A stretch of 38,162 nt of DNA from positions 1 through 38,162 of IMG/VR virus record IMGVR_UViG_3300039180_001510. One strand, 5' to 3'. Origin of the DNA: a virus (Duplodnaviria; Caudoviricetes). Positions 26,966 through 37,968 of the stretch are shown one piece after another; position 1 is the stretch's first letter, and every line of letters starts with the position of its first letter. The notes beneath the pieces are model-generated. The model was not told where the DNA came from. It searched no databases and saw only the letters and a list, made by a program, of their open reading frames with translations. A program made the translations under genes and the position numbers.

Positions 26966-29900
26966 ATGGGACAATTAGTAGGAGAAGCTTTTGACGATTT
27001 TGTAAAAAACCAAATAACTATCCGCCAACAAACTGCTGGTAGTGGTTTTGATGGTAGTAGGACACCTGAGCAACTCCAGATCCAAAATAACCAAAATTCT
27101 TTTTTAAAATTAGGTTCATCAGTTAGATTCCTAACTACCCCTGAAATTGTAGCAGAACTTAAACTTACCGCCCCAAATCTTACAGAAGAAGAATATAAAA
27201 ATAGTGACAGAAGAAATGGTGCCGATAGAATAGAAGCTATAGGATTAACAAACCCTGAGAATTTTATGGGGAATAAGTTAGCGAAAAAAACAGTATTGTT
27301 TAACTCAACCTCTGAAGTAATATCTTCTGTAAAAGACAGAGAAGGAAAAGGCACACACGGGACTTACAACTTTAGATCAGGAGTAAGCCAAACAGGTGAC
27401 ATATGGAATAATTCAAATGCATACGGTTTAGGAGGAAGTCAACAAGGTTTAACTCCACCCCCAGGTCTAATAGATGCTAAAGTAGAAGCCTTAAACAGGG
27501 GTTCAATTAGAAAAGCTACAGTTAATATTAAGGCACACAACAAATTTCAATTTGAATTAATCGAGTTACTGTACTTACGACTAGGGTATACCATGTTGTT
27601 AGAATGGGGTAATGATAAGTTCATTAACAATGAAGGAAACCTCCAACAAATGGGTAATACCTTAATGGAAGATATTTGGTTTCAAGATTTTAAAACTTAC
27701 AATTTTACTAAATTAATTAAGGATGTAGGTAAGTATAGAGAGACATATAGTGGTAATTATGATGGGTTTATAGGTAAGGTATCTAATTTTTCTTGGGATT
27801 TTGATCGAGATGGTACTTATAATATCACCCTAAACTTGATATCAGTAGGGGATGTAATAGAATCAATAAAAGTTAACAATCCTGCAGATATTAAAACAGA
27901 AAAGGAAATAGAGGAAATTCTAAATGGGTACAATACAGGAATTAGTGGTCTAGAAACTACATTAACTAAATCTTCCCTTGTTACAAATGCAGGTACCTCT
28001 CCCCTGGCATATGATTTATTTACCGATATTGTAGATAGTAAAGGAAGTTTAAAATGGTGGGGATACAAATACCCTTACTTAAACTTGTATTGGAGTTTAA
28101 ACCTCCCTGAAGAAAAAGCAGGTGGGGATATGTTAGCCCAAATAAAATCATTAAATGATGGTGAGGGAGTAGATATTGACCGATTTGGTTATTATTTAAC
28201 ACTAGGAGAATTATTACAAAAGATAAAAACATTTTGTATTCCTAAATTGTCAAATGGTTATATGTTAGACATAGATACAAATGTAGATGAGACTATAATG
28301 TCTGCCTATCCTAACCAAATATCTTTAAACCCCAAAATTGCTCTAGTAAAACCAAAATTTCTGGATGATCTTTCCTTAAACAATTATAATGAATTTTCTG
28401 CTAACAAAACTGGTATAAAATCATATTGGGACTTTGCTAAGAGAATGAATGATTGGATGGTAACTGAAAATGATGGAAGTATAATATATGGAAAAACTCT
28501 AAATGTTTACTTAAATTATGACTTTATATCTAATGCTTTAGACAAAGTAACTAAAAAGGGGGAAATATACTTATTTAAATTTCTACAAGAAATATGTGAT
28601 GGTATTAACAGTGCACTAGGTGGGGTACCAAATTTAGAACCTATTATAAGCGATGATAACGTTATAACCATTCAAGACCAAAATAGAATTAGAGGGATTG
28701 AAAATAGTTCTTTTAAAAGTAAATTTGACACTACTTCAAGTTTTGAGCTTTATGGTTATAATCTTAAAGGTAGAGGCGAAGGAAATAAACTAATACCTAC
28801 CTCTAATATTGTTAGAGAGTTTGGATTTAAAACAAAGATAGGACCAGACTTAGCATCTATGATATCTATTGGGGCTACAGCTAATGGAACTTCAACTAAA
28901 AACTATGATGCAACCGCTTTTTCAAGTTGGAATACTGGGTTAAGGGACCAATATCAATACGGTCTTAAAGATCCCCCACAAATGAACAAGGATAAAATAA
29001 CCAATTTAGATAATATTTACGCTCCTCTTACCTTAAAACAAGTTAATGAGTTGTATGTCCACTTTACTACAAAGGGAGTATTAGATAAGAGGAGCTTTTT
29101 AGGGATTTTCGCGAGAGCCTCTAATGACACTGTATCTACAATATTTGGAAAGTCTTCAACAGGTAAAAGAGATGTAGATGACTCACCAGTTACTAATAAA
29201 AACTATAATAATGTTTTTTGGGCTAAATATATAGAGGAAGTAATAGAAGATGTAGAAAATAACAATACTCCCCCTGAACCTGAAGAATTACAAAAATTCG
29301 CAGATGGTTACATCAGATACCTAATTCAAGGTTTTAGAGGAAAAATACAAGGACAAACAGAACTTAAAGGTTATTATTTTCATTTAAATGACGAATACAT
29401 AAAACAAGGAAAACAATCCTTTAAAGGGTATGTTAATATTCTTGATAATGCTTTATACGCGGCTACAGGAACACCCTCTACTAAAATAGGATTTATACCT
29501 TTAAACTTAGATTTAACTTGTGATGGGATTTCTGGAGTAAAAATGTATCAAAAACTAAATATTAGACAAGAATTTTTACCACAACAATATCCGGATGCTT
29601 TAGAATTTTTAATATCTAAAGTCAACCATACTATTTCAAATAATGATTGGACTACCTCCTTAACTACAATATCTACTCCTAAAACAAAAGAACAAAATAT
29701 AGGGGCATTTATTAATACTGAAATTAGTAAAATCACAAAACAAGCATCAGATAATTATGTAGTATATAAAGGAGATGCCCCTCAAGTAACACTTACCACA
29801 GGGTATAGTGTAGTAAATGATAAAACAAAATCCGGCCTAATTTACTACCCAACAGGTTCAGGTAAAAACCAAATAGTATTACACCATACTGCTGGAAGTA

Positions 29901-30511
29901 GTGATGCTAAACAGGAAATTGGCACAAACTGGACTAGTAAAACATATCCAATAGCAACCCATTACATTATAGAAAGAAAAGGACATTCAGAGCATGTTTT
30001 TCCTGATGTATATTGGTCTAACCATTTAGGTATAAGTAGAAAAAGTGGTAATCCTTATAGCCATAACAATTTTCAATTAAACAAACAGTCTTTATCTATT
30101 GAGTTAGAATCATTAGGATTTTTAACGGAAAGAGATGGTAAGTGGTATAGTTATGTTGGTTCTGAAATTCCCCTTAGTGATACTAGTGAACCTTATATGT
30201 TAGACGATAATAATAATGTTGTAAAGATGCCAGGGGGATATAAAGGATATGAAAGGTACCAGTCATATACACCTGCGATGTTATCTGAATTAGAAAAAGT
30301 TCTAGTAAATTGGAAATCTACCTATAACATTTCAATTTATTTAAATAATAAAAACTTTGATGATGTTTTCCCTAAAGAAGGTAAATATTCTAAATCTGCA
30401 AGTACTTTCGTTGGTGGTATTTATACCCACAACTCATACAGACCAGATAAAGCAGATGTTTTCCCACAAAAGGAATTATTAGAATTATTAATGAAAATAG
30501 GAAACTTATAG
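26966..30511 (+). CDS. Baseplate hub protein with C-terminal N-acetylmuramoyl-L-alanine amidase domain
   Basis: Hub-like N-terminal region (LEWG, FIGKVSNFSW, VNHTISNNDWTT); Amidase_2 motifs IVLHHTAG, HYII, SIELE and THNSYRPDKAD. Confidence 0.75.
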   Translation: MGQLVGEAFDDFVKNQITIRQQTAGSGFDGSRTPEQLQIQNNQNSFLKLGSSVRFLTTPEIVAELKLTAPNLTEEEYKNSDRRNGADRIEAIGLTNPENFMGNKLAKKTVLFNSTSEVISSVKDREGKGTHGTYNFRSGVSQTGDIWNNSNAYGLGGSQQGLTPPPGLIDAKVEALNRGSIRKATVNIKAHNKFQFELIELLYLRLGYTMLLEWGNDKFINNEGNLQQMGNTLMEDIWFQDFKTYNFTKLIKDVGKYRETYSGNYDGFIGKVSNFSWDFDRDGTYNITLNLISVGDVIESIKVNNPADIKTEKEIEEILNGYNTGISGLETTLTKSSLVTNAGTSPLAYDLFTDIVDSKGSLKWWGYKYPYLNLYWSLNLPEEKAGGDMLAQIKSLNDGEGVDIDRFGYYLTLGELLQKIKTFCIPKLSNGYMLDIDTNVDETIMSAYPNQISLNPKIALVKPKFLDDLSLNNYNEFSANKTGIKSYWDFAKRMNDWMVTENDGSIIYGKTLNVYLNYDFISNALDKVTKKGEIYLFKFLQEICDGINSALGGVPNLEPIISDDNVITIQDQNRIRGIENSSFKSKFDTTSSFELYGYNLKGRGEGNKLIPTSNIVREFGFKTKIGPDLASMISIGATANGTSTKNYDATAFSSWNTGLRDQYQYGLKDPPQMNKDKITNLDNIYAPLTLKQVNELYVHFTTKGVLDKRSFLGIFARASNDTVSTIFGKSSTGKRDVDDSPVTNKNYNNVFWAKYIEEVIEDVENNNTPPEPEELQKFADGYIRYLIQGFRGKIQGQTELKGYYFHLNDEYIKQGKQSFKGYVNILDNALYAATGTPSTKIGFIPLNLDLTCDGISGVKMYQKLNIRQEFLPQQYPDALEFLISKVNHTISNNDWTTSLTTISTPKTKEQNIGAFINTEISKITKQASDNYVVYKGDAPQVTLTTGYSVVNDKTKSGLIYYPTGSGKNQIVLHHTAGSSDAKQEIGTNWTSKTYPIATHYIIERKGHSEHVFPDVYWSNHLGISRKSGNPYSHNNFQLNKQSLSIELESLGFLTERDGKWYSYVGSEIPLSDTSEPYMLDDNNNVVKMPGGYKGYERYQSYTPAMLSELEKVLVNWKSTYNISIYLNNKNFDDVFPKEGKYSKSASTFVGGIYTHNSYRPDKADVFPQKELLELLMKIGNL

Positions 30512-31396: not shown

Positions 31397-31416
31397 ATAA
31401 ATCTGTCGTATATTTA
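31385..31416 (+). promoter_or_regulatory. Putative early/middle promoter (AGTGG-N16-TCGTATATTTA)
   Basis: Matches motif and spacing at 980 and 33522; marks switch from structural to replication genes. Confidence 0.7.
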
Positions 31417-31432: not shown

Positions 31433-32710
31433 ATGTATTGGCTTATAGAAGATAAAGAACAGTTAGATGTTCTAATTAATAGTAGTTATAAGGAGGCTTT
31501 CATCGAAGTAATCCCTTATAATGATACAATACACCCATCACAAACATATGTAAGTTTAGTGTATATTAGACCACTTGAAGCAACTAAAGGTTTTATGGTA
31601 GGTATACATCATAGTGAAGTCACTAATGAGTTAATCACGTATAAGACAAGCGTTGAAAAGTTGATAAACAAGTTTGAAAAATTGTATTGTCGAGATAAAA
31701 AAGAAACATTACATTATTTTCCAAACAAAACTCTTTATGACATAACACCACCACCTCATACGTATATACGTCCCACAACCAAAGTACACGAAATATTCTA
31801 TAGTAAACACACGGATAACCATGAGTTAAACCTAATTATCCCTATTGTTAAACACTATGAATTATGCGAACACATTTTTGAAGATCTAAAAGCGAATATT
31901 AACAGAACTAAAACTAAATATGATGAATTCTTTAACAATAAAGTATCCATGGTTTTCAACTACCTCGAACGAAGTGGAATACGAGTACACAAGGAAACCT
32001 TCGAGGAACACTTCCACCCCATTGATGGTGAACGAGTTTACACTCAATACAACCTTAGGACAACCACAACACGCCCTTCAAACAAATTTAAAAACGTAAA
32101 TTATGCAGCATTATCACATAAGAATGGGTGTAGAAAAAGTTTTATCCCAAGCAATGATAGGTTTATTGACATTGATATTAGTGCTTATCATCCTAGTCTG
32201 TCTTGTATGCTCATTAATTATGATTTCCCCTCTATTGATATCCATAGCCATCTACAAGAGTTATATCAAGTTGACTACGCAAAGTCTAAGGAATTAACAT
32301 TTAAACAACTATACGGAGGAGTATTCAAAGAATACGAACACCTAGAATTTTTTAGTAAAATTAATATATACGTAAAAGAACTCTGGGAAGACTTTGAAAG
32401 AGAGGGTAAAATTACTTGTCCAATTTCTAACTATGTGTATAAAAAAGAGAACCTGGATAAAATGAACCCACAAAAACTCTTTAATTACTTGCTACAAAAT
32501 TTGGAGACGTCAATGAACGTTCGTATATTATGGGATATGATATCAGTACTAAAAGGTAAAAAAACAAAATTAGTACTATACACATATGATAGTTTCTTAT
32601 TGGATGCTGATGATAGTGAACAATATTTAATAGAAGATGTAAAAAAAATATTTACTAAATATAAATTAAACACAAAAACAAAAGAAGGTTATGACTATGA
32701 TTTTAAATAA
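31433..32710 (+). CDS. Divergent, short family-A polymerase-like protein
   Basis: PolA motifs TTTTRPSN, motif A DISAYHP, DIH, motif B KELTFKQLYG, NYLLQ, motif C YTYDSF; no recognisable proofreading motif. Confidence 0.8.
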   Translation: MYWLIEDKEQLDVLINSSYKEAFIEVIPYNDTIHPSQTYVSLVYIRPLEATKGFMVGIHHSEVTNELITYKTSVEKLINKFEKLYCRDKKETLHYFPNKTLYDITPPPHTYIRPTTKVHEIFYSKHTDNHELNLIIPIVKHYELCEHIFEDLKANINRTKTKYDEFFNNKVSMVFNYLERSGIRVHKETFEEHFHPIDGERVYTQYNLRTTTTRPSNKFKNVNYAALSHKNGCRKSFIPSNDRFIDIDISAYHPSLSCMLINYDFPSIDIHSHLQELYQVDYAKSKELTFKQLYGGVFKEYEHLEFFSKINIYVKELWEDFEREGKITCPISNYVYKKENLDKMNPQKLFNYLLQNLETSMNVRILWDMISVLKGKKTKLVLYTYDSFLLDADDSEQYLIEDVKKIFTKYKLNTKTKEGYDYDFK

Positions 32711-33158
32711 TTCTCCGAATACGTATAACACGAACTATGATGTTATAACGTCATTCCAAAACATAGGAGATTTGAACAATAAGTTATTTTGTACCTTCAC
32801 AAATTTAGAGAATTTAGATTCTTTATTAGAAGAGATTACAAGCAGATACACCATTATATACAATAAAATGTTTGTCCTCGAGATCGTGGGCAAAGATGAA
32901 TACGTTGTAACTTATAATGTAGACCAAGGAAATGTACAAACAATCCCAGAAAATACTATTTTAGTACATAGGAAGAAAGAATCTAATACTTTATACACAA
33001 TAAACGCCCTTAATGAGTTAATTAAGAAGTTAAATGGTGGTGTAGTAGATACTAAATTCCAAATAGACTGGCAACATTATAGAAATAGTGTTTTACTTAC
33101 ACAACATAATGATTTAAGTCAATTAAAGACTAAAATTTATAAAATAATAGACATATAA
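32691..33158 (+). CDS. Hypothetical protein (true start may be TTG at 32772)
   Basis: NNKLFCTF...LVHRKKESNTLYTINALN; promoter-like motif within first 27 codons suggests later start. Confidence 0.7.
   Translation: MTMILNNSPNTYNTNYDVITSFQNIGDLNNKLFCTFTNLENLDSLLEEITSRYTIIYNKMFVLEIVGKDEYVVTYNVDQGNVQTIPENTILVHRKKESNTLYTINALNELIKKLNGGVVDTKFQIDWQHYRNSVLLTQHNDLSQLKTKIYKIIDI
32719..32728 (+). promoter_or_regulatory. Putative late promoter variant ATACGTATAA
   Basis: Same variant as 11063 and 14025, just after polymerase-like stop. Confidence 0.5.
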
Positions 33159-33493
33159 TGGAAGAATTAAACACTTTTAGAAAATATTTAAAGGAAGGAT
33201 ACAGTCAATCCGACTTTGATAAATTAGAGGATGCATTATATCATGGTGATATACCAGGACAATTAATCTTACAAGGAGATGGAGCATTAGATTTATTATT
33301 AGGCCGTGACTATCCAGATTCATTAGCTGATAAAGCAGATGGTTTTGCTAGAAAATTAGGGATTAATATGGGAATAATGGCTCAAGGTTCATTTAGAGTT
33401 CCAAATTTAGATTCATCAATGATTAATGGTGGTCCTGAAGAATGGGATGGAGATGAAGATGATGATGAAGACGATGAAGATTACGAGTATTAA
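33158..33493 (+). CDS. Hypothetical protein with acidic tail; possible internal head protein
   Basis: Leader MEELNTFRKYLKE ends in L-X-E; C-terminal Asp/Glu run. Confidence 0.6.
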   Translation: MEELNTFRKYLKEGYSQSDFDKLEDALYHGDIPGQLILQGDGALDLLLGRDYPDSLADKADGFARKLGINMGIMAQGSFRVPNLDSSMINGGPEEWDGDEDDDEDDEDYEY

Positions 33494-33593: not shown

Positions 33594-34424
33594 ATGGATT
33601 TAAATGCGATTAAACAAAAATTGGATGGGTTACAATCAAAACAAGCCCAAGGACCGAAGAAAGACTACAGTCTAATATTTTGGAGACCAACAATTGGTAA
33701 ACAACAAATTAGAATTGTACCATCAGCGTTCAACACTAGCAACCCTTTTACGGAATTGAAGTTCTACTACGGTATTACTAATAAAGTGATGCTTTCACCC
33801 CAAAATTATGGAGAGAAAGATCCTATTGCTTTATTTGCAGGTAAACTTAGAGAGGAGTACAACAAAGAAAATTACTTATTAGCTAAAAGTTTAGATGCTA
33901 AGAACCGTATTTTTGTTCCTGTAGTAGTTAGAGGAGAAGAAGAAAAAGGTGTTAGACTATGGCAATTTGGTAAACAAGTATATGAAGAATTACTTTCACT
34001 TGCTATTGATGATGAAATTGGTGATTATACTGATGTAGCATCAGGTAGAGATCTTACTATTGAAACGGTAGGACCAGAATCTACAGGTACTCCTTATAAC
34101 AAGTCATCAGTACGTGTTAGATTAAAATCAACACCAATTAGTGAAGATACTGCTCAAGTAGAGTTATGGTCAGGGACACAACCAAACCCTATGGATGAAT
34201 TTAAAAGATTTACATTCGATGAAATGAAATCAGCATTAGAAAAGTGGTTATCACCTGAATCAGATGCAACTACTGAAAATGCATTTCCAACACCCGCAGC
34301 AGCCGCACCAAAAACTAATAATTTTAGTTTAGACACTAGTAATGTAAAAAAAACTAAGAATGACCAATTCGACACCTTATTTGGTGATGAAAAAGATGGT
34401 GAATCAGATGACCTTCCTTTCTAA
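33594..34424 (+). CDS. Single-stranded DNA-binding protein (T4 gp32-like)
   Basis: FWRP..GKQQIRIVP, VRLWQFGKQVY, GRDL and acidic C-terminus ending DDLPF. Confidence 0.82.
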   Translation: MDLNAIKQKLDGLQSKQAQGPKKDYSLIFWRPTIGKQQIRIVPSAFNTSNPFTELKFYYGITNKVMLSPQNYGEKDPIALFAGKLREEYNKENYLLAKSLDAKNRIFVPVVVRGEEEKGVRLWQFGKQVYEELLSLAIDDEIGDYTDVASGRDLTIETVGPESTGTPYNKSSVRVRLKSTPISEDTAQVELWSGTQPNPMDEFKRFTFDEMKSALEKWLSPESDATTENAFPTPAAAAPKTNNFSLDTSNVKKTKNDQFDTLFGDEKDGESDDLPF

Positions 34425-34426
34425 AT

Positions 34427-35500
34427 ATGGCTAAAAAAATAAAGAAGTCTCTCTCGGCGGCAGTGTCTGCCGAGATTAAGAGCAAATTTGACTTAAATAA
34501 GTTCAAAAACGCTAAAGGTTTAGATAAAAACGTCAAATTTAAGGAACAACAATGGATTCCATTATCACCAGCATTTACTGAAGTATCAGGAGTACCGGGT
34601 ATCCCAATGGGTCATATCTCATTACTTAGAGGACATTCAGATACTGGTAAAACCACCGCTTTATTAGAAGCAGCAGTCTCAGCACAAAAAATGGGTATAT
34701 TACCTGTTTTTATTATTACAGAGATGAAATGGAATTGGGAACACGCATCTCAAATGGGCTTACAAGTTAATCTAATTAAAGATGAAGAGGGTGAAGTAGT
34801 AGATTACGATGGTAATTTTATTTACGTAGATAGAGAAACAGTACATACTATTGAAGATGTAGCTGCCTTTATTATGGATTTACAAAATGAACAGAAAAAT
34901 GGTAACTTACCATATGACTTAGCTTTCTTTTGGGATTCAATTGGTTCTATTCCTTGTGCAATGTCAGTTGAGAAATTGAAAAATAACAATGAATGGAATG
35001 CAGGAGCAATGTCAACACAATTTGGTAATACTGTAAATCAAAGTATTGTAATGTCTCGTAAAGAATCAGCACCATACACTAATACATTAATTGCTATTAA
35101 CAAAGTTTGGACGGCTAAAGCTGAATCACCTATGGGCCAACCAAAGATGATGAACAAAGGTGGAATGGCTATGTGGTACGATGCAACGTTTGTAGCTACG
35201 TTTGGTAATGTTTCAAATGCTGGTACATCTAAAATTAAAGCAATTAAAGGTGGTAAGCAAGTAGAATGGGGGAAACGTACCAACTTGCAAATTGATAAGA
35301 ACCATGTTAATGGTATTCAATCAAGAGGTAAAATTGTTATGACAAACCACGGGTTTATTCAAGATACAGATAAGGATAAAAACAACTATAAAAAAGATCA
35401 TTCTGACGAATGGGCTAAAATATTAGGTGGTGGGAAATTCGAAATTGTAGAAGACCAAGAAGACGTATCACCAGTACTCTTCGATTCACAAGATTTATAA
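34427..35500 (+). CDS. recA: RecA/UvsX-like recombinase
   Basis: GIPMGHI, Walker A GHSDTGKTT, Walker B FFWDSIGS, INK and KGG motifs. Confidence 0.88.
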   Translation: MAKKIKKSLSAAVSAEIKSKFDLNKFKNAKGLDKNVKFKEQQWIPLSPAFTEVSGVPGIPMGHISLLRGHSDTGKTTALLEAAVSAQKMGILPVFIITEMKWNWEHASQMGLQVNLIKDEEGEVVDYDGNFIYVDRETVHTIEDVAAFIMDLQNEQKNGNLPYDLAFFWDSIGSIPCAMSVEKLKNNNEWNAGAMSTQFGNTVNQSIVMSRKESAPYTNTLIAINKVWTAKAESPMGQPKMMNKGGMAMWYDATFVATFGNVSNAGTSKIKAIKGGKQVEWGKRTNLQIDKNHVNGIQSRGKIVMTNHGFIQDTDKDKNNYKKDHSDEWAKILGGGKFEIVEDQEDVSPVLFDSQDL

Positions 35501-35510
35501 AAACAAGAAC

Positions 35511-36551
35511 ATGAAGCAAAAAGAATTATTTGCGTTGCTGGATGAAGTCCAGGAGCAAGGGAAGGAAACTGTAGTTAGAAAACACGATAAAGTGTTATTA
35601 ATAGATGGTTTAAATCTATTCTTTAGAAACTTTGCAGTGATGAACCAAGTTAATACTGATGGAGTCCATGTTGGAGGGTTGGGTGGATTCTTTCGTTCTT
35701 TAGGTGCCATGATTCGACAAACCAACCCTACCTCTGTTTATGTAGTATTTGACGGTGCAGGTTCTACTGTTAGTAGAAAGAACCTGCTCGCCGAATATAA
35801 AGGGGGTAGAAATATTAAAAGAATTACCAATTGGGACGCTTTTGATAATATGGAAGAGGAACATGATTCTAAAATTGATCAAATTGTACGTATAATTCAA
35901 TACTTAAAAACATTACCTGTTAAAACTACTATTATAGATAAAGTAGAAGCAGATGATGTAATAGCGGTATTAGCTGAAAAATTTGTAGAAAAATATAATT
36001 CAACCTGTTTTATAGTATCATCCGATAAGGATTTTGTTCAATTAGTAACAGATAATATTATTTTATATCGTCCAATGGAAAAGGAGTTTTATACTCCAAA
36101 AGTAGTAAGAGAAAAGTTTGGTGTTTCACCAAATAACTTTATTCTAATTAAAACCCTACTAGGTGATAGTTCAGATAACATCCCAGGTATAAAAGGTTTA
36201 GGTGAGAAAGGAATATTTAAAAAATTCCCAGAACTAAAAACCCAAGAATTAACTTTAGATGACATTTTTGACATCTCTGCTAGGAAATTCAAGGAACATA
36301 TTGTATATTCACGGATAATTCAAGATAAAATAAAGCTAGAAAATAGTTTTAAGGTAATGGATTTGAGTAAACCAATGATAGGAGAGAGAGATATAAATTT
36401 CCTTGAAGGAGTTATTAATGAACCATTTCCTAAACTTGAAGCAGAATTATTTATGCAATTATATAACATAGATAAATTAGGGGGAATGATTAGAAACTTA
36501 GAGACATGGGTAACAGATATCTTCTCTCAATTTGGTAGTTATAAAGATTAA
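35511..36551 (+). CDS. 5'-3' exonuclease / flap endonuclease (T4 RNase H / Pol I N-domain-like)
   Basis: LLIDGLN, VVFDG, YKGGR, EADDVI, SSDKDF and GDSSDNIPGIKGLGEK motifs. Confidence 0.92.
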   Translation: MKQKELFALLDEVQEQGKETVVRKHDKVLLIDGLNLFFRNFAVMNQVNTDGVHVGGLGGFFRSLGAMIRQTNPTSVYVVFDGAGSTVSRKNLLAEYKGGRNIKRITNWDAFDNMEEEHDSKIDQIVRIIQYLKTLPVKTTIIDKVEADDVIAVLAEKFVEKYNSTCFIVSSDKDFVQLVTDNIILYRPMEKEFYTPKVVREKFGVSPNNFILIKTLLGDSSDNIPGIKGLGEKGIFKKFPELKTQELTLDDIFDISARKFKEHIVYSRIIQDKIKLENSFKVMDLSKPMIGERDINFLEGVINEPFPKLEAELFMQLYNIDKLGGMIRNLETWVTDIFSQFGSYKD

Positions 36552-36570
36552 TAAAACAAAAAGGTTATAA

Positions 36571-37968
36571 ATGACATTAAATAGTATAAATCAATACGGA
36601 CACGAATTCCAGATTAAGGTGTTATCTTCATTGTTAACCCATAAGGAATTTTTAGTAAATATCCATGATATAATATCAGAAGAATATTTTGAGAATAGTT
36701 CTCAGAAATGGATTATTAAAGAGATTTTAAACTATTATGACAAATACCACACAACACCCTCTTTAGATGTTATTAAAGTGGAATTGCAGAAATTAGACAA
36801 TGATGTCTTAAAAATTTCTTTAAAAGACCAACTAAAACAAGCATACATATCCTCAGATGAAGACTTAGAATACGTACAAGAAGAATTTACAAATTTTTGT
36901 AAAAACCAACAATTGAAGAAGGCCTTAATGTCGTCTGTGGACTTATTGAAAGCAGGCGATTTTGATGGTATTAGGTCTTTAGTTGATAGTGCTTTAAAAG
37001 CAGGACAAGATAAAAATCTAGGACATGAATATATTAAAGACATTGAAGAACGTTATAAGGAAGAATCTAGAATTACTATACCAACACCTTGGCCTAAAAT
37101 TAATGAATTACTACAAGGTGGACTGGGAAATGGAGATTTTGGTCTTATATTTGGTAGTCCGGGAGGTGGTAAATCTTGGTCGTTAGTTGCAATGGGGGGG
37201 AGAGCCGTTAGGTTAGGTTATAACGTAATACATTACACTTTAGAATTAGGTGAAAATTATGTTGGTAAAAGGTATGATGCATTTTTTACCGAAATAGATG
37301 TTCGTGATTTACACTTACATAAAGACAAAGTTGAAGAAACTATTCCACAATTACCTGGTAAACTAATTATTAAAGAATTCCCAACAGGACGTGCTACTAT
37401 ATCAACAATAGAGTCTCATATTAAAAAAGTAGAAAGTCTAGGTATTAAAGCAGATTTAATAATTATTGACTATGTTGACTTACTTTCATCAGGACGTCAA
37501 AGTAGAGAGCGTAAAGATGAAATTGATGATATTTATACTAGTACCAAAGGATTAGCAAAACAGTTAGACATACCAATATGGTCAGTTTCACAAGTTAATC
37601 GTGCCGGTGCAAATGACGACATTATTGAAGGGGATAAAGCAGCAGGGTCATATGATAAAATTATGATAACTGACTTTTGTATGTCTCTTTCACGTAAGAA
37701 GGAAGATAAAGTAGGGGGTACTGGGAGATTACATATTATGAAAAATAGATATGGAATGGATGGTCATACCTTCTCTTTGACTGCTAATACAGCAACGGGA
37801 CATTTTGAAGTATTCCCATACAATGCAGACTTAAGTGGAGATGAGGAAACTTTTGCTCCTAAATCAAAGTCTAACAGTTATGATAATGTAGATGCACATC
37901 AAAAAAGACAAATAGCAGCAGCATACAGTAATGTAAAGGATGATGTATTCAGTTTCGAAAAAAAATAA
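36571..37968 (+). CDS. dnaB: Replicative DNA helicase (DnaB/T4 gp41-like)
   Basis: Walker A GSPGGGKS, YTLEL, IIIDYVDL, SQVNR and KNRYG motifs. Confidence 0.92.
   Translation: MTLNSINQYGHEFQIKVLSSLLTHKEFLVNIHDIISEEYFENSSQKWIIKEILNYYDKYHTTPSLDVIKVELQKLDNDVLKISLKDQLKQAYISSDEDLEYVQEEFTNFCKNQQLKKALMSSVDLLKAGDFDGIRSLVDSALKAGQDKNLGHEYIKDIEERYKEESRITIPTPWPKINELLQGGLGNGDFGLIFGSPGGGKSWSLVAMGGRAVRLGYNVIHYTLELGENYVGKRYDAFFTEIDVRDLHLHKDKVEETIPQLPGKLIIKEFPTGRATISTIESHIKKVESLGIKADLIIIDYVDLLSSGRQSRERKDEIDDIYTSTKGLAKQLDIPIWSVSQVNRAGANDDIIEGDKAAGSYDKIMITDFCMSLSRKKEDKVGGTGRLHIMKNRYGMDGHTFSLTANTATGHFEVFPYNADLSGDEETFAPKSKSNSYDNVDAHQKRQIAAAYSNVKDDVFSFEKK

What the first reader, a model, noticed from the sequence alone, without database searches (positions are those of the whole stretch)
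31433..32710. Minimal PolA-fold enzyme with remodelled nucleotide-selection residues: candidate RNA polymerase or primase derived from a DNA polymerase
Seen: a 425-aa protein keeps both catalytic aspartates (D248 in DISAYHP, D386 in YTYDSF), motif B K286/F290/Y294/G295, DIH, the T.T.R motif and NxxxQ. Aligned by eye to E. coli Pol I, the steric-gate Glu710 (DYSQIE) is His253, the triphosphate-binding Arg754 is Tyr282, and motif C HDE is YDS(F). The N-terminal region lacks the Exo I DxE (AFIEVIP). Established: Glu710 excludes rNTPs in Pol I; T7 RNA polymerase, the same fold, has HDSF in motif C; T4-like phages replicate with a family-B polymerase. Inference: this is a poor fit for a proofreading replicase and may make RNA, either as the late transcriptase for the ATATTTATAA promoters or as a primase (no primase lies in the visible part of the replication block). 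It has an early-type promoter, which fits either role. Handling a modified base is another option.
Basis: partly seen in the sequence, partly recalled or inferred. Interest (0 to 1): 0.85.

Follow-up and report, generated by a model that had tools for sequence, protein, structure and literature searches.

The report
Thumbless second phage polymerase (divPolA1)
This marine phage gene encodes a stripped-down relative of DNA polymerase I from a family described by computation in 2024 (divPolA1); its odd active-site residues are real and conserved, and it likely makes short stretches of nucleic acid during replication rather than transcribing late genes, because related phages carry their own sigma factor, primase and main polymerase.

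Summary
The 425-aa ORF is a family A polymerase with both catalytic aspartates. His253 (133/135), Tyr282 (87/135) and YD[S/A] are family-wide; the thumb is collapsed and the exonuclease site is gone. It is a member of divPolA1 (Yutin et al. 2024), found in Immutovirus-like phages. This scan has reported the family at least five times on other genomes.

The late-transcriptase idea is poorly supported. Five of five near-complete relatives also encode a sigma-70-like factor, a DnaG primase and a regular PolA or PolB. The fold is Klenow-like (Z 21-24, against 7-11 for RNA polymerases). Rhodothermus phage RM378 has a related TATTTAA promoter and a sigma homologue but no detectable divPolA1.

Best reading (0.42): an accessory, non-processive DNA polymerase for gaps in recombination-driven replication. 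Strongest rival (0.30): de novo primer synthesis. It is favoured by the remodelled gate and by a last thumb helix about one turn short, as in CcPol and T7 RNA polymerase.

Side result: the linked small gene has its own late-type promoter and a likely second TTG start.

The parts
31433..32710 (+). divPolA1 gene, 425 aa: dead 3'-5' exonuclease fold (about residues 1-180), collapsed thumb, palm and fingers
31407..31416 (+). CGTATATTTA element, inferred host-RNA-polymerase (early-type) promoter of divPolA1; seen upstream of most homologues
   Evidence: class inferred, no transcript mapping
31976..32074 (+). G182-R214, the remnant of the thumb (32 aa against about 200 in replicative PolA)
32174..32191 (+). 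Motif A, D248 to H253; His replaces the steric-gate Glu710
32276..32317 (+). Motif B, Y282 (for Arg754), K286, F290, Y294, G295
32504..32506 (+). E358, an invariant family-specific acidic residue on helix Q
   Evidence: 135/135
32585..32593 (+). Motif C, Y385-D386-S387
32691..33158 (+). Linked small gene: 155-aa long form overlapping the polymerase stop, and a likely 128-aa core from TTG at 32772; ACT/RRM-like N-terminal domain; function unknown
32719..32727 (+). ATACGTATA, late-type promoter motif inside the small gene's 5' extension; divPolA1 lies upstream of it
   Evidence: 119 of 125 distinct loci
33594..37968 (+). Downstream block: gp32-like SSB, UvsX/RecA, 5'-3' (FEN) exonuclease, DnaB helicase, in conserved order

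Best explanation
The gene encodes divPolA1, a family A polymerase with intact catalytic aspartates, a collapsed thumb and no exonuclease site, which likely serves as an accessory, non-processive DNA polymerase filling short gaps during recombination-driven replication. In this model it would extend 3' ends by a few bases at D-loops or at gaps left after the neighbouring 5'-3' exonuclease removes primers, so that the pair acts like a split Pol I beside SSB, UvsX and DnaB. Bulk synthesis would be done by the separately encoded PolA, PolB or PolC, lagging-strand priming by DnaG, and late transcription by host RNA polymerase with the phage sigma factor. His253, possibly with the invariant Glu358, would still exclude the 2'-OH. 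Shown: residues, fold prediction, gene order, co-occurrence. Inferred: substrate, timing, partners.
For: Fold closest to DNA polymerases: Z 23.9/23.6/23.4 with 398-412 residues aligned, against mitochondrial RNAP 11.4, T7 RNAP 11.0 and N4 RNAPII 7.5. The profile search of solved structures gave 55 hits, all DNA polymerases. DNA-polymerase-type T-x-[G/T]-R hairpin, NxxxQ, and Phe at Lys+4; the gate is a bulky His, never Gly. Fixed position at the head of the SSB-RecA-FEN-DnaB block. A regular polymerase, DnaG and sigma factor are present in 5 of 5 near-complete relatives. Clamp-loader subunits lie near PolB in G003 and G010. A 240-aa gene follows PolB in 7 of 7 PolB records and is absent from 4 of 4 PolA records, which fits the regular enzyme being the processive replicase. 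Yutin et al. also infer DNA polymerase activity.
Against: A plain gap filler does not obviously need a new and nearly invariant active-site set (H253 + E358 + Y/F385 + S/A/G387 in 133 of 135). Loss of Arg754 and Glu710 should cost catalytic efficiency (general knowledge of Pol I). The segment forming the last thumb helix is short, a feature linked to de novo initiation. Host Pol I could do the same job. No biochemical data exist in the papers found.
Confidence: 0.42

Rival explanations
1. A second, specialised primase: it starts short RNA or DNA chains de novo (origin or restart priming) on ssDNA at the helicase, perhaps helped by the small protein or the SSB, in the manner of CcPol-MP.
For: No thumb, so products would be short. 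From the conserved Asn to the conserved Arg of the last thumb helix there are 11 residues in 129 of 135 sequences, against 15 in Klenow (counted) and 16 in T7 DNA polymerase; the model has only a 4-residue helix there, 233-236. The CcPol papers link this one-turn shortening to room for the initiating triphosphate. The gate Glu is gone and motif C has RNAP-like D-S-F. A small gene is always adjacent, in an operon with a helicase.
Against: DnaG with intact-looking TOPRIM motifs is present in 5 of 5 near-complete relatives. The small protein gives ACT/RRM-type matches only (Z up to 6.7), not the OB/SSB type of MP. It has its own late-type promoter and second start, so it may not be a stoichiometric subunit. 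CcPol keeps the gate Glu, so its analogy does not explain His253.
Confidence: 0.3
2. It handles an unusual nucleotide or reaction, for example copying past or inserting a modified base, or template-poor nucleotidyl transfer.
For: Three substitutions are unlike both DNA and RNA polymerases (H253, Y282, Y385), plus the invariant E358. 7-deazaguanine pathway genes (queC, D, E, F, folE, dpdA) are annotated in Immuto, and a queC-like gene was confirmed in G001.
Against: Those genes flank the regular polymerase, not divPolA1. DpdA-type modification is post-replicative (recalled). The minor-groove residues R214 and Q355 point to ordinary templated pairing.
Confidence: 0.13
3. It is the main or a co-replicase, with a partner replacing the thumb, and the 'regular' polymerase is the accessory one.
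For: It sits in the invariant replication block while the regular polymerase is swapped among families.
Against: No proofreading and no thumb. PolB travels with clamp-loader subunits.
Confidence: 0.07
4. It is the late RNA polymerase for the ATATTTATAA promoters, a minimal enzyme like N4 RNAPII with the small protein as cofactor.
For: Motif C D-S-F and an early-type promoter fit. N4 RNAPII shows that a small, thumb-truncated enzyme with an AT-rich promoter and a cofactor is possible. No T7-type or multisubunit RNAP was found in 5 records (the T7-type search had no ringing control).
Against: A sigma-70-like gene is in 5 of 5 near-complete relatives: 44 of 44 members match a SigI model at E<=0.1, best 5.7e-6; the Atlas gives a sigma cluster at 0.97; a distant member passes Pfam Sigma70_r2. 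RM378 has TATTTAA before 37 of 61 occurrences' ORF starts (controls 6 of 44 and 1 of 35) and a sigma homologue, but no divPolA1 or small-gene hit. DxRGR, the Gly gate and NxxHSxD are absent, and the fold is Klenow-like.
Confidence: 0.05

Closest known systems
divPolA1 (Yutin et al. 2024, Virol J 21:200, PMC11348598); type member Flavobacterium phage vB_FspM_immuto gp1
   Same: 35% identity over 96% of the length to Immuto gp1 (E 3e-71). Same palm, truncated thumb, dead exonuclease, downstream replication block and second regular polymerase.
   Different: The section I read does not discuss the His gate, the Arg-to-Tyr change, YDS, Glu358, the small gene or the sigma factor (its figure alignments and supplements were not visible to me). 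The family is far larger than the 14 genomes listed: 1075 clusters at 50% identity with E<=0.001.
E. coli Pol I Klenow fragment and bacterial Pol I
   Same: Exo-palm-fingers architecture (Z 23.4, 412 aligned); D705, D882, K758, F762, Y766, R668 and Q849 equivalents kept.
   Different: Thumb reduced to about 30 aa, exonuclease acids lost, Glu710 to His, Arg754 to Tyr, HDE to YDS; the 5' nuclease is a separate gene.
CcPol-MP and PolA-SSB primases; TV-Pols
   Same: Reduced PolA beside a small gene and a helicase; shortened last thumb helix.
   Different: CcPol keeps the gate Glu and makes DNA primers; MP is an OB fold; here the exonuclease fold is kept whole, the thumb is lost and DnaG is also encoded.
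T7 RNA polymerase and N4 RNAPII
   Same: Same superfamily; D-[S/C]-F in motif C; non-Glu gate.
   Different: They have a Gly gate, DxRGR, NxxHSxD, RxxxK and promoter-recognition elements; structural match is only Z 7.5-11.4.
divPolA2 (barbaviruses; same paper)
   Same: Second divergent PolA lacking a normal thumb; RNA polymerase role was suggested for it.
   Different: It has a different N-terminal domain and variable context according to the paper; not compared by sequence here.

Membership tests
divPolA1 | Full-length homology to a named member | tested here: met
   35% identity, 96% coverage, E 3e-71 to Immuto gp1; those genomes are named in the paper
divPolA1 | Palm with catalytic residues conserved | tested here: met
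   D248, D386 and K286 135/135
divPolA1 | Truncated thumb | tested here: met
   32 aa against 198-214; model
divPolA1 | Exonuclease fold present but inactivated | tested here: met
   Residues 1-180 match DnaQ-type exonucleases, Z up to 12.6; Exo I acids not conserved
divPolA1 | Replication genes downstream | tested here: met
   SSB, UvsX, 5'-3' exonuclease, DnaB
divPolA1 | A regular DNA polymerase in the same genome | tested here: inconclusive
   Own record is a 23%-complete fragment; met in 5 of 5 near-complete relatives; not seen in G002, 74% complete
T7/N4-type single-subunit RNA polymerase | DxRGR hairpin, Gly at Asp+5, NxxHSxD | tested here: not met
   Compared with fetched T7 gp1 and N4 gp15/gp16; Gly 0 of 135 at the gate
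T7/N4-type single-subunit RNA polymerase | Motif C HD[S/C]F | tested here: inconclusive
   D-[S/A]-[F/I] matches, His is Tyr
T7/N4-type single-subunit RNA polymerase | Promoter-specific rNTP synthesis | not testable with these tools
   needs biochemistry
PolA-SSB primase (CcPol-MP type) | Last thumb helix one turn shorter | tested here: met
   11 against 15-16 residues; by sequence count and secondary structure only, no superposition
PolA-SSB primase (CcPol-MP type) | OB-fold SSB partner from the next gene | tested here: inconclusive
   Model pLDDT 76; listed matches are ACT/RRM-like, Z<=6.7, over residues 24-99 only
PolA-SSB primase (CcPol-MP type) | De novo synthesis on ssDNA | not testable with these tools
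   needs biochemistry
Canonical replicative PolA | Gate Glu, RxxxK, active exonuclease, full thumb | tested here: not met

The most novel reading that the evidence does not exclude
divPolA1 is a DNA-polymerase-derived primase or short-RNA synthase that evolved ribonucleotide use independently of the T7 lineage, through a His-Glu rebuilt sugar gate, loss of the thumb and a shortened initiation helix. It would start replication in a very abundant group of aquatic phages alongside DnaG.
Probability: 0.22. Interest if true: 0.8.

Novelty: new member of a known kind. Interest (0 to 1): 0.4.

Why it matters
The family is abundant (3937 near-length homologues among 5806 candidates) and untested in the papers found. 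It is a natural experiment on the Pol I active site: His for the steric-gate Glu, Tyr for Arg754, no thumb. One assay would show whether sugar choice and primer independence can be rewired this way. A cultured host system exists (Immuto phages on Flavobacterium sp. LMO8). If it is only a gap filler, the value is modest: it settles the annotation of a common hypothetical gene and of this group's late sigma factor.

Tried and rejected
Single-sequence Pfam, PHROG and PDB searches of the window protein gave nothing. A three-way MAFFT alignment with the regular Immuto PolA misaligned the motifs and was not used. hhalign of the family against single T7 RNAP, T7 DNAP and Immuto PolA sequences was not significant (probability 0.1, 4.1 and 0.5).

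Complex prediction of the polymerase with the small protein gave no verdict (score 0.00); this is no evidence either way. The small protein had no usable Atlas hit, no Foldseek PDB match at E<=0.001 and only an uncharacterised homologue in BFVD. No OB-fold chain is among the listed rows, which does not exclude one.

The sigma candidate had no PHROG, Pfam or PDB hit of note as a single sequence or as a profile. The 240-aa gene after PolB looks like a sliding clamp by size and position, but no search confirmed it; the gp45 family search had no ringing control.

RNA-library contigs from marine metatranscriptomes cover parts of the gene in some runs, but contigs cannot show level, strand or start. 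A scan of prokaryote genomes with the family alignment could not run and was not repeated, so cellular occurrence is untested. The second outgroup, LR756511, was rejected as a clean control because it encodes a different thumbless PolA. Two papers on the steric gate (PMC3040255, PMC19848) are not held.

Full report
Observation. The window is a 23%-complete T4-like phage record: head and tail genes, then this gene, a small gene, SSB, UvsX, a 5'-3' exonuclease and DnaB. I aligned the protein with 4 close homologues and 130 of the 150 listed 50%-identity representatives; 20 partial matches were left out. D248, K286, D386, R214 and E358 are invariant; H253 is 133/135, Y385 132/135, S/A387 134/135, Y282 87/135. 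The substitutions are therefore family traits, not decay.

Identity. tblastn of the phage collection gave 6 records: four Immutovirus records (35% identity), LR756508 and Mel-JY01. Yutin et al. 2024 (PMC11348598; passages and section 13 read in full, figures and supplements not seen) describe this family as divPolA1: active palm, truncated thumb, dead exonuclease, a regular PolA, B or C in the same genome, probably involved in replication. They raise an RNA polymerase role only for divPolA2. A search for divPolA1, divPolA and 'divergent PolA' listed 20 of 154 papers; only that paper and its preprint used the name among those listed. Iyer 2021 (PMC7824862) and the marine jumbo-phage paper PMC9123017, seen as passages, showed nothing on this family. 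Earlier notes of this scan reached divPolA1 on five other genomes, after I had identified it.

Structure. The AlphaFold2 model (pLDDT 95.9) matches family A DNA polymerases at Z 21-24 over about 370-410 residues; yeast mitochondrial RNAP gives 11.4, T7 RNAP 11.0 and N4 RNAPII 7.5. The thumb is 32 aa (family 20-40) against 198 and 214 in two replicative PolAs. Against fetched T7 and N4 enzymes, three features are DNA-polymerase-type (hairpin, NxxxQ, Phe at Lys+4), one is RNAP-like (D-S-F), and three are unique (His gate where RNAPs have Gly; Tyr for an Arg that both classes keep; Tyr in motif C). The stretch that forms the last thumb helix is 11 residues in 129 of 135 sequences, against 15 in Klenow (counted) and 16 in T7 DNA polymerase. 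Bebel 2020 (PMC7581432, passages) and the bioRxiv follow-up 2022.12.02.518924 (passages and Discussion) tie a one-turn shortening there to de novo initiation. This is the best new support for a primer-making role; it rests on residue counts, not on a superposition.

Genome context. Immuto encodes a 777-aa PolA and a DnaG primase. Of 14 large records searched, five are near-complete (G001, G005, G006, W01, W02). All five hold divPolA1, DnaG, a sigma-like gene and a regular polymerase: PolA in three, PolB in two. The partial records miss various genes; G002 (74% complete) shows sigma and primase but no regular polymerase. LR756508 holds PolB and PolC. Clamp-loader subunits lie near PolB in the two regions where I scanned them. 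A 240-aa gene follows PolB in 7 of 7 PolB records and in 0 of 4 PolA records; that it is a clamp is inferred only.

Late transcription. ATATTTATAA is far above chance and sits before structural genes; a wider form, ATA[C/T][G/T]TATA, also lies before the scaffold-capsid operon. Immuto gp153 defines a sigma-like family: 44 of 44 members match a SigI model, weakly and far below its cut-off; the Atlas names sigma clusters at 0.97 and 0.93; a distant member found by the profile passes Pfam Sigma70_r2. The next capsid relative, RM378, has TATTTAA 7-45 nt before an ORF start in 37 of 61 cases (controls 6 of 44 and 1 of 35), including 7 of 7 genes I chose to inspect, among them sheath, tube and portal. 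It has a homologue of the sigma (E 1.8e-4) and a second, ECF-type sigma, but no convincing divPolA1 or small-gene hit among 436 ORFs (best E 0.042 and 0.013). Caveat: the same profile scores other PolAs poorly (T7 DNA polymerase E 0.07), so a very remote PolA fold could be missed. The promoter class thus follows the sigma factor, not divPolA1. N4 RNAPII (PMC4496689, passages) is the precedent that keeps the RNA polymerase idea above zero.

Small gene. It follows the polymerase closely in 61 of 63 loci, the other two about 250 nt away, and is present in all 79 loci printed; it is more conserved than the polymerase. The codon three before its first conserved strand is TTG, ATG or GTG in 120 of 125 distinct loci, and a late-type motif lies upstream in 119 of 125, nearly always at frame-keeping distances. 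So a 128-aa form probably starts at 32772 from an internal late promoter, while the 155-aa form would be coupled to divPolA1. divPolA1 itself would be early only. The 'early' label for CGTATATT rests on its place in Immuto and on the recalled Bacteroidota promoter consensus. The model has an ACT/RRM-like domain with no specific match.

Mechanism and verdict. Shown: intact catalytic set, lost thumb and exonuclease site, fixed place in the SSB-RecA-FEN-DnaB block, and separate replicase, primase and sigma in relatives. Inferred: short products, early expression, accessory role. I put short-patch DNA synthesis at 0.42, de novo priming at 0.30, unusual-nucleotide chemistry at 0.13, main replicase at 0.07 and late RNA polymerase at 0.05. 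Other papers seen: PMC2579912 (parts 1-2 of 3), PMC10201439 and PMC13369328 (passages; the last names Glu710 as the canonical steric gate). It is a new member of a published but untested family; interest 0.40.

Noticed in passing
window 32719-32774: Late-type promoter motif inside the small gene's 5' extension and a conserved TTG/ATG/GTG codon at 32772: two likely isoforms. The apparently invariant Tyr12 is explained by the DNA motif.
   Followed up: yes
L003:28174-28872 (Immuto gp153) and relatives L086-L165: Unannotated sigma-70-like gene, followed directly by a TATTTAT motif in nearly all loci printed; candidate late sigma factor of this phage group.
   Followed up: yes
L270:5924-7207 (-) (LR756511): A different 428-aa thumbless PolA with canonical gate Glu and RxxxK (Pfam DNA_pol_A, E 1.2e-19). 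Beside it is a 387-aa ORF with polymerase-like motifs by eye and no Pfam hit.
   Followed up: partly
L263:13948-14679, L264:12461-13198, L265:12138-12857, L266:15281-16000: About 240-aa gene directly after a split PolB, present only with PolB; probable divergent sliding clamp that no library recognised.
   Followed up: partly
window 8533, 11063, 14025, 20546: ATA[C/T]GTAT[A/G] variants of the late motif before genes lacking ATATTTATAA, including the scaffold-capsid operon. The G variant alone is only marginally above chance (6 matches, 1 of 100 shuffles).
   Followed up: partly
window 33158-33493: 111-aa ORF with an acidic tail between the small gene and SSB; no family hit, and absent at this place from the more distant loci, a variable insertion site.
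   Followed up: no
NC_004735 (RM378), L267, L269, L272: TATTTAA precedes tail, portal and other genes; Rm378p020 is a likely unannotated late sigma factor besides the annotated ECF-type sigma.
   Followed up: partly
window 26966-30511: 1181-aa baseplate-region protein with a C-terminal amidase domain (Pfam Amidase_2, E 7.1e-7).
   Followed up: no
PP395634 (Mel-JY01), L166: Recorded host is a cyanobacterium, yet its divPolA1 block, sigma-like gene and capsid protein resemble the Flavobacterium phage; the host record may merit a check.
   Followed up: no
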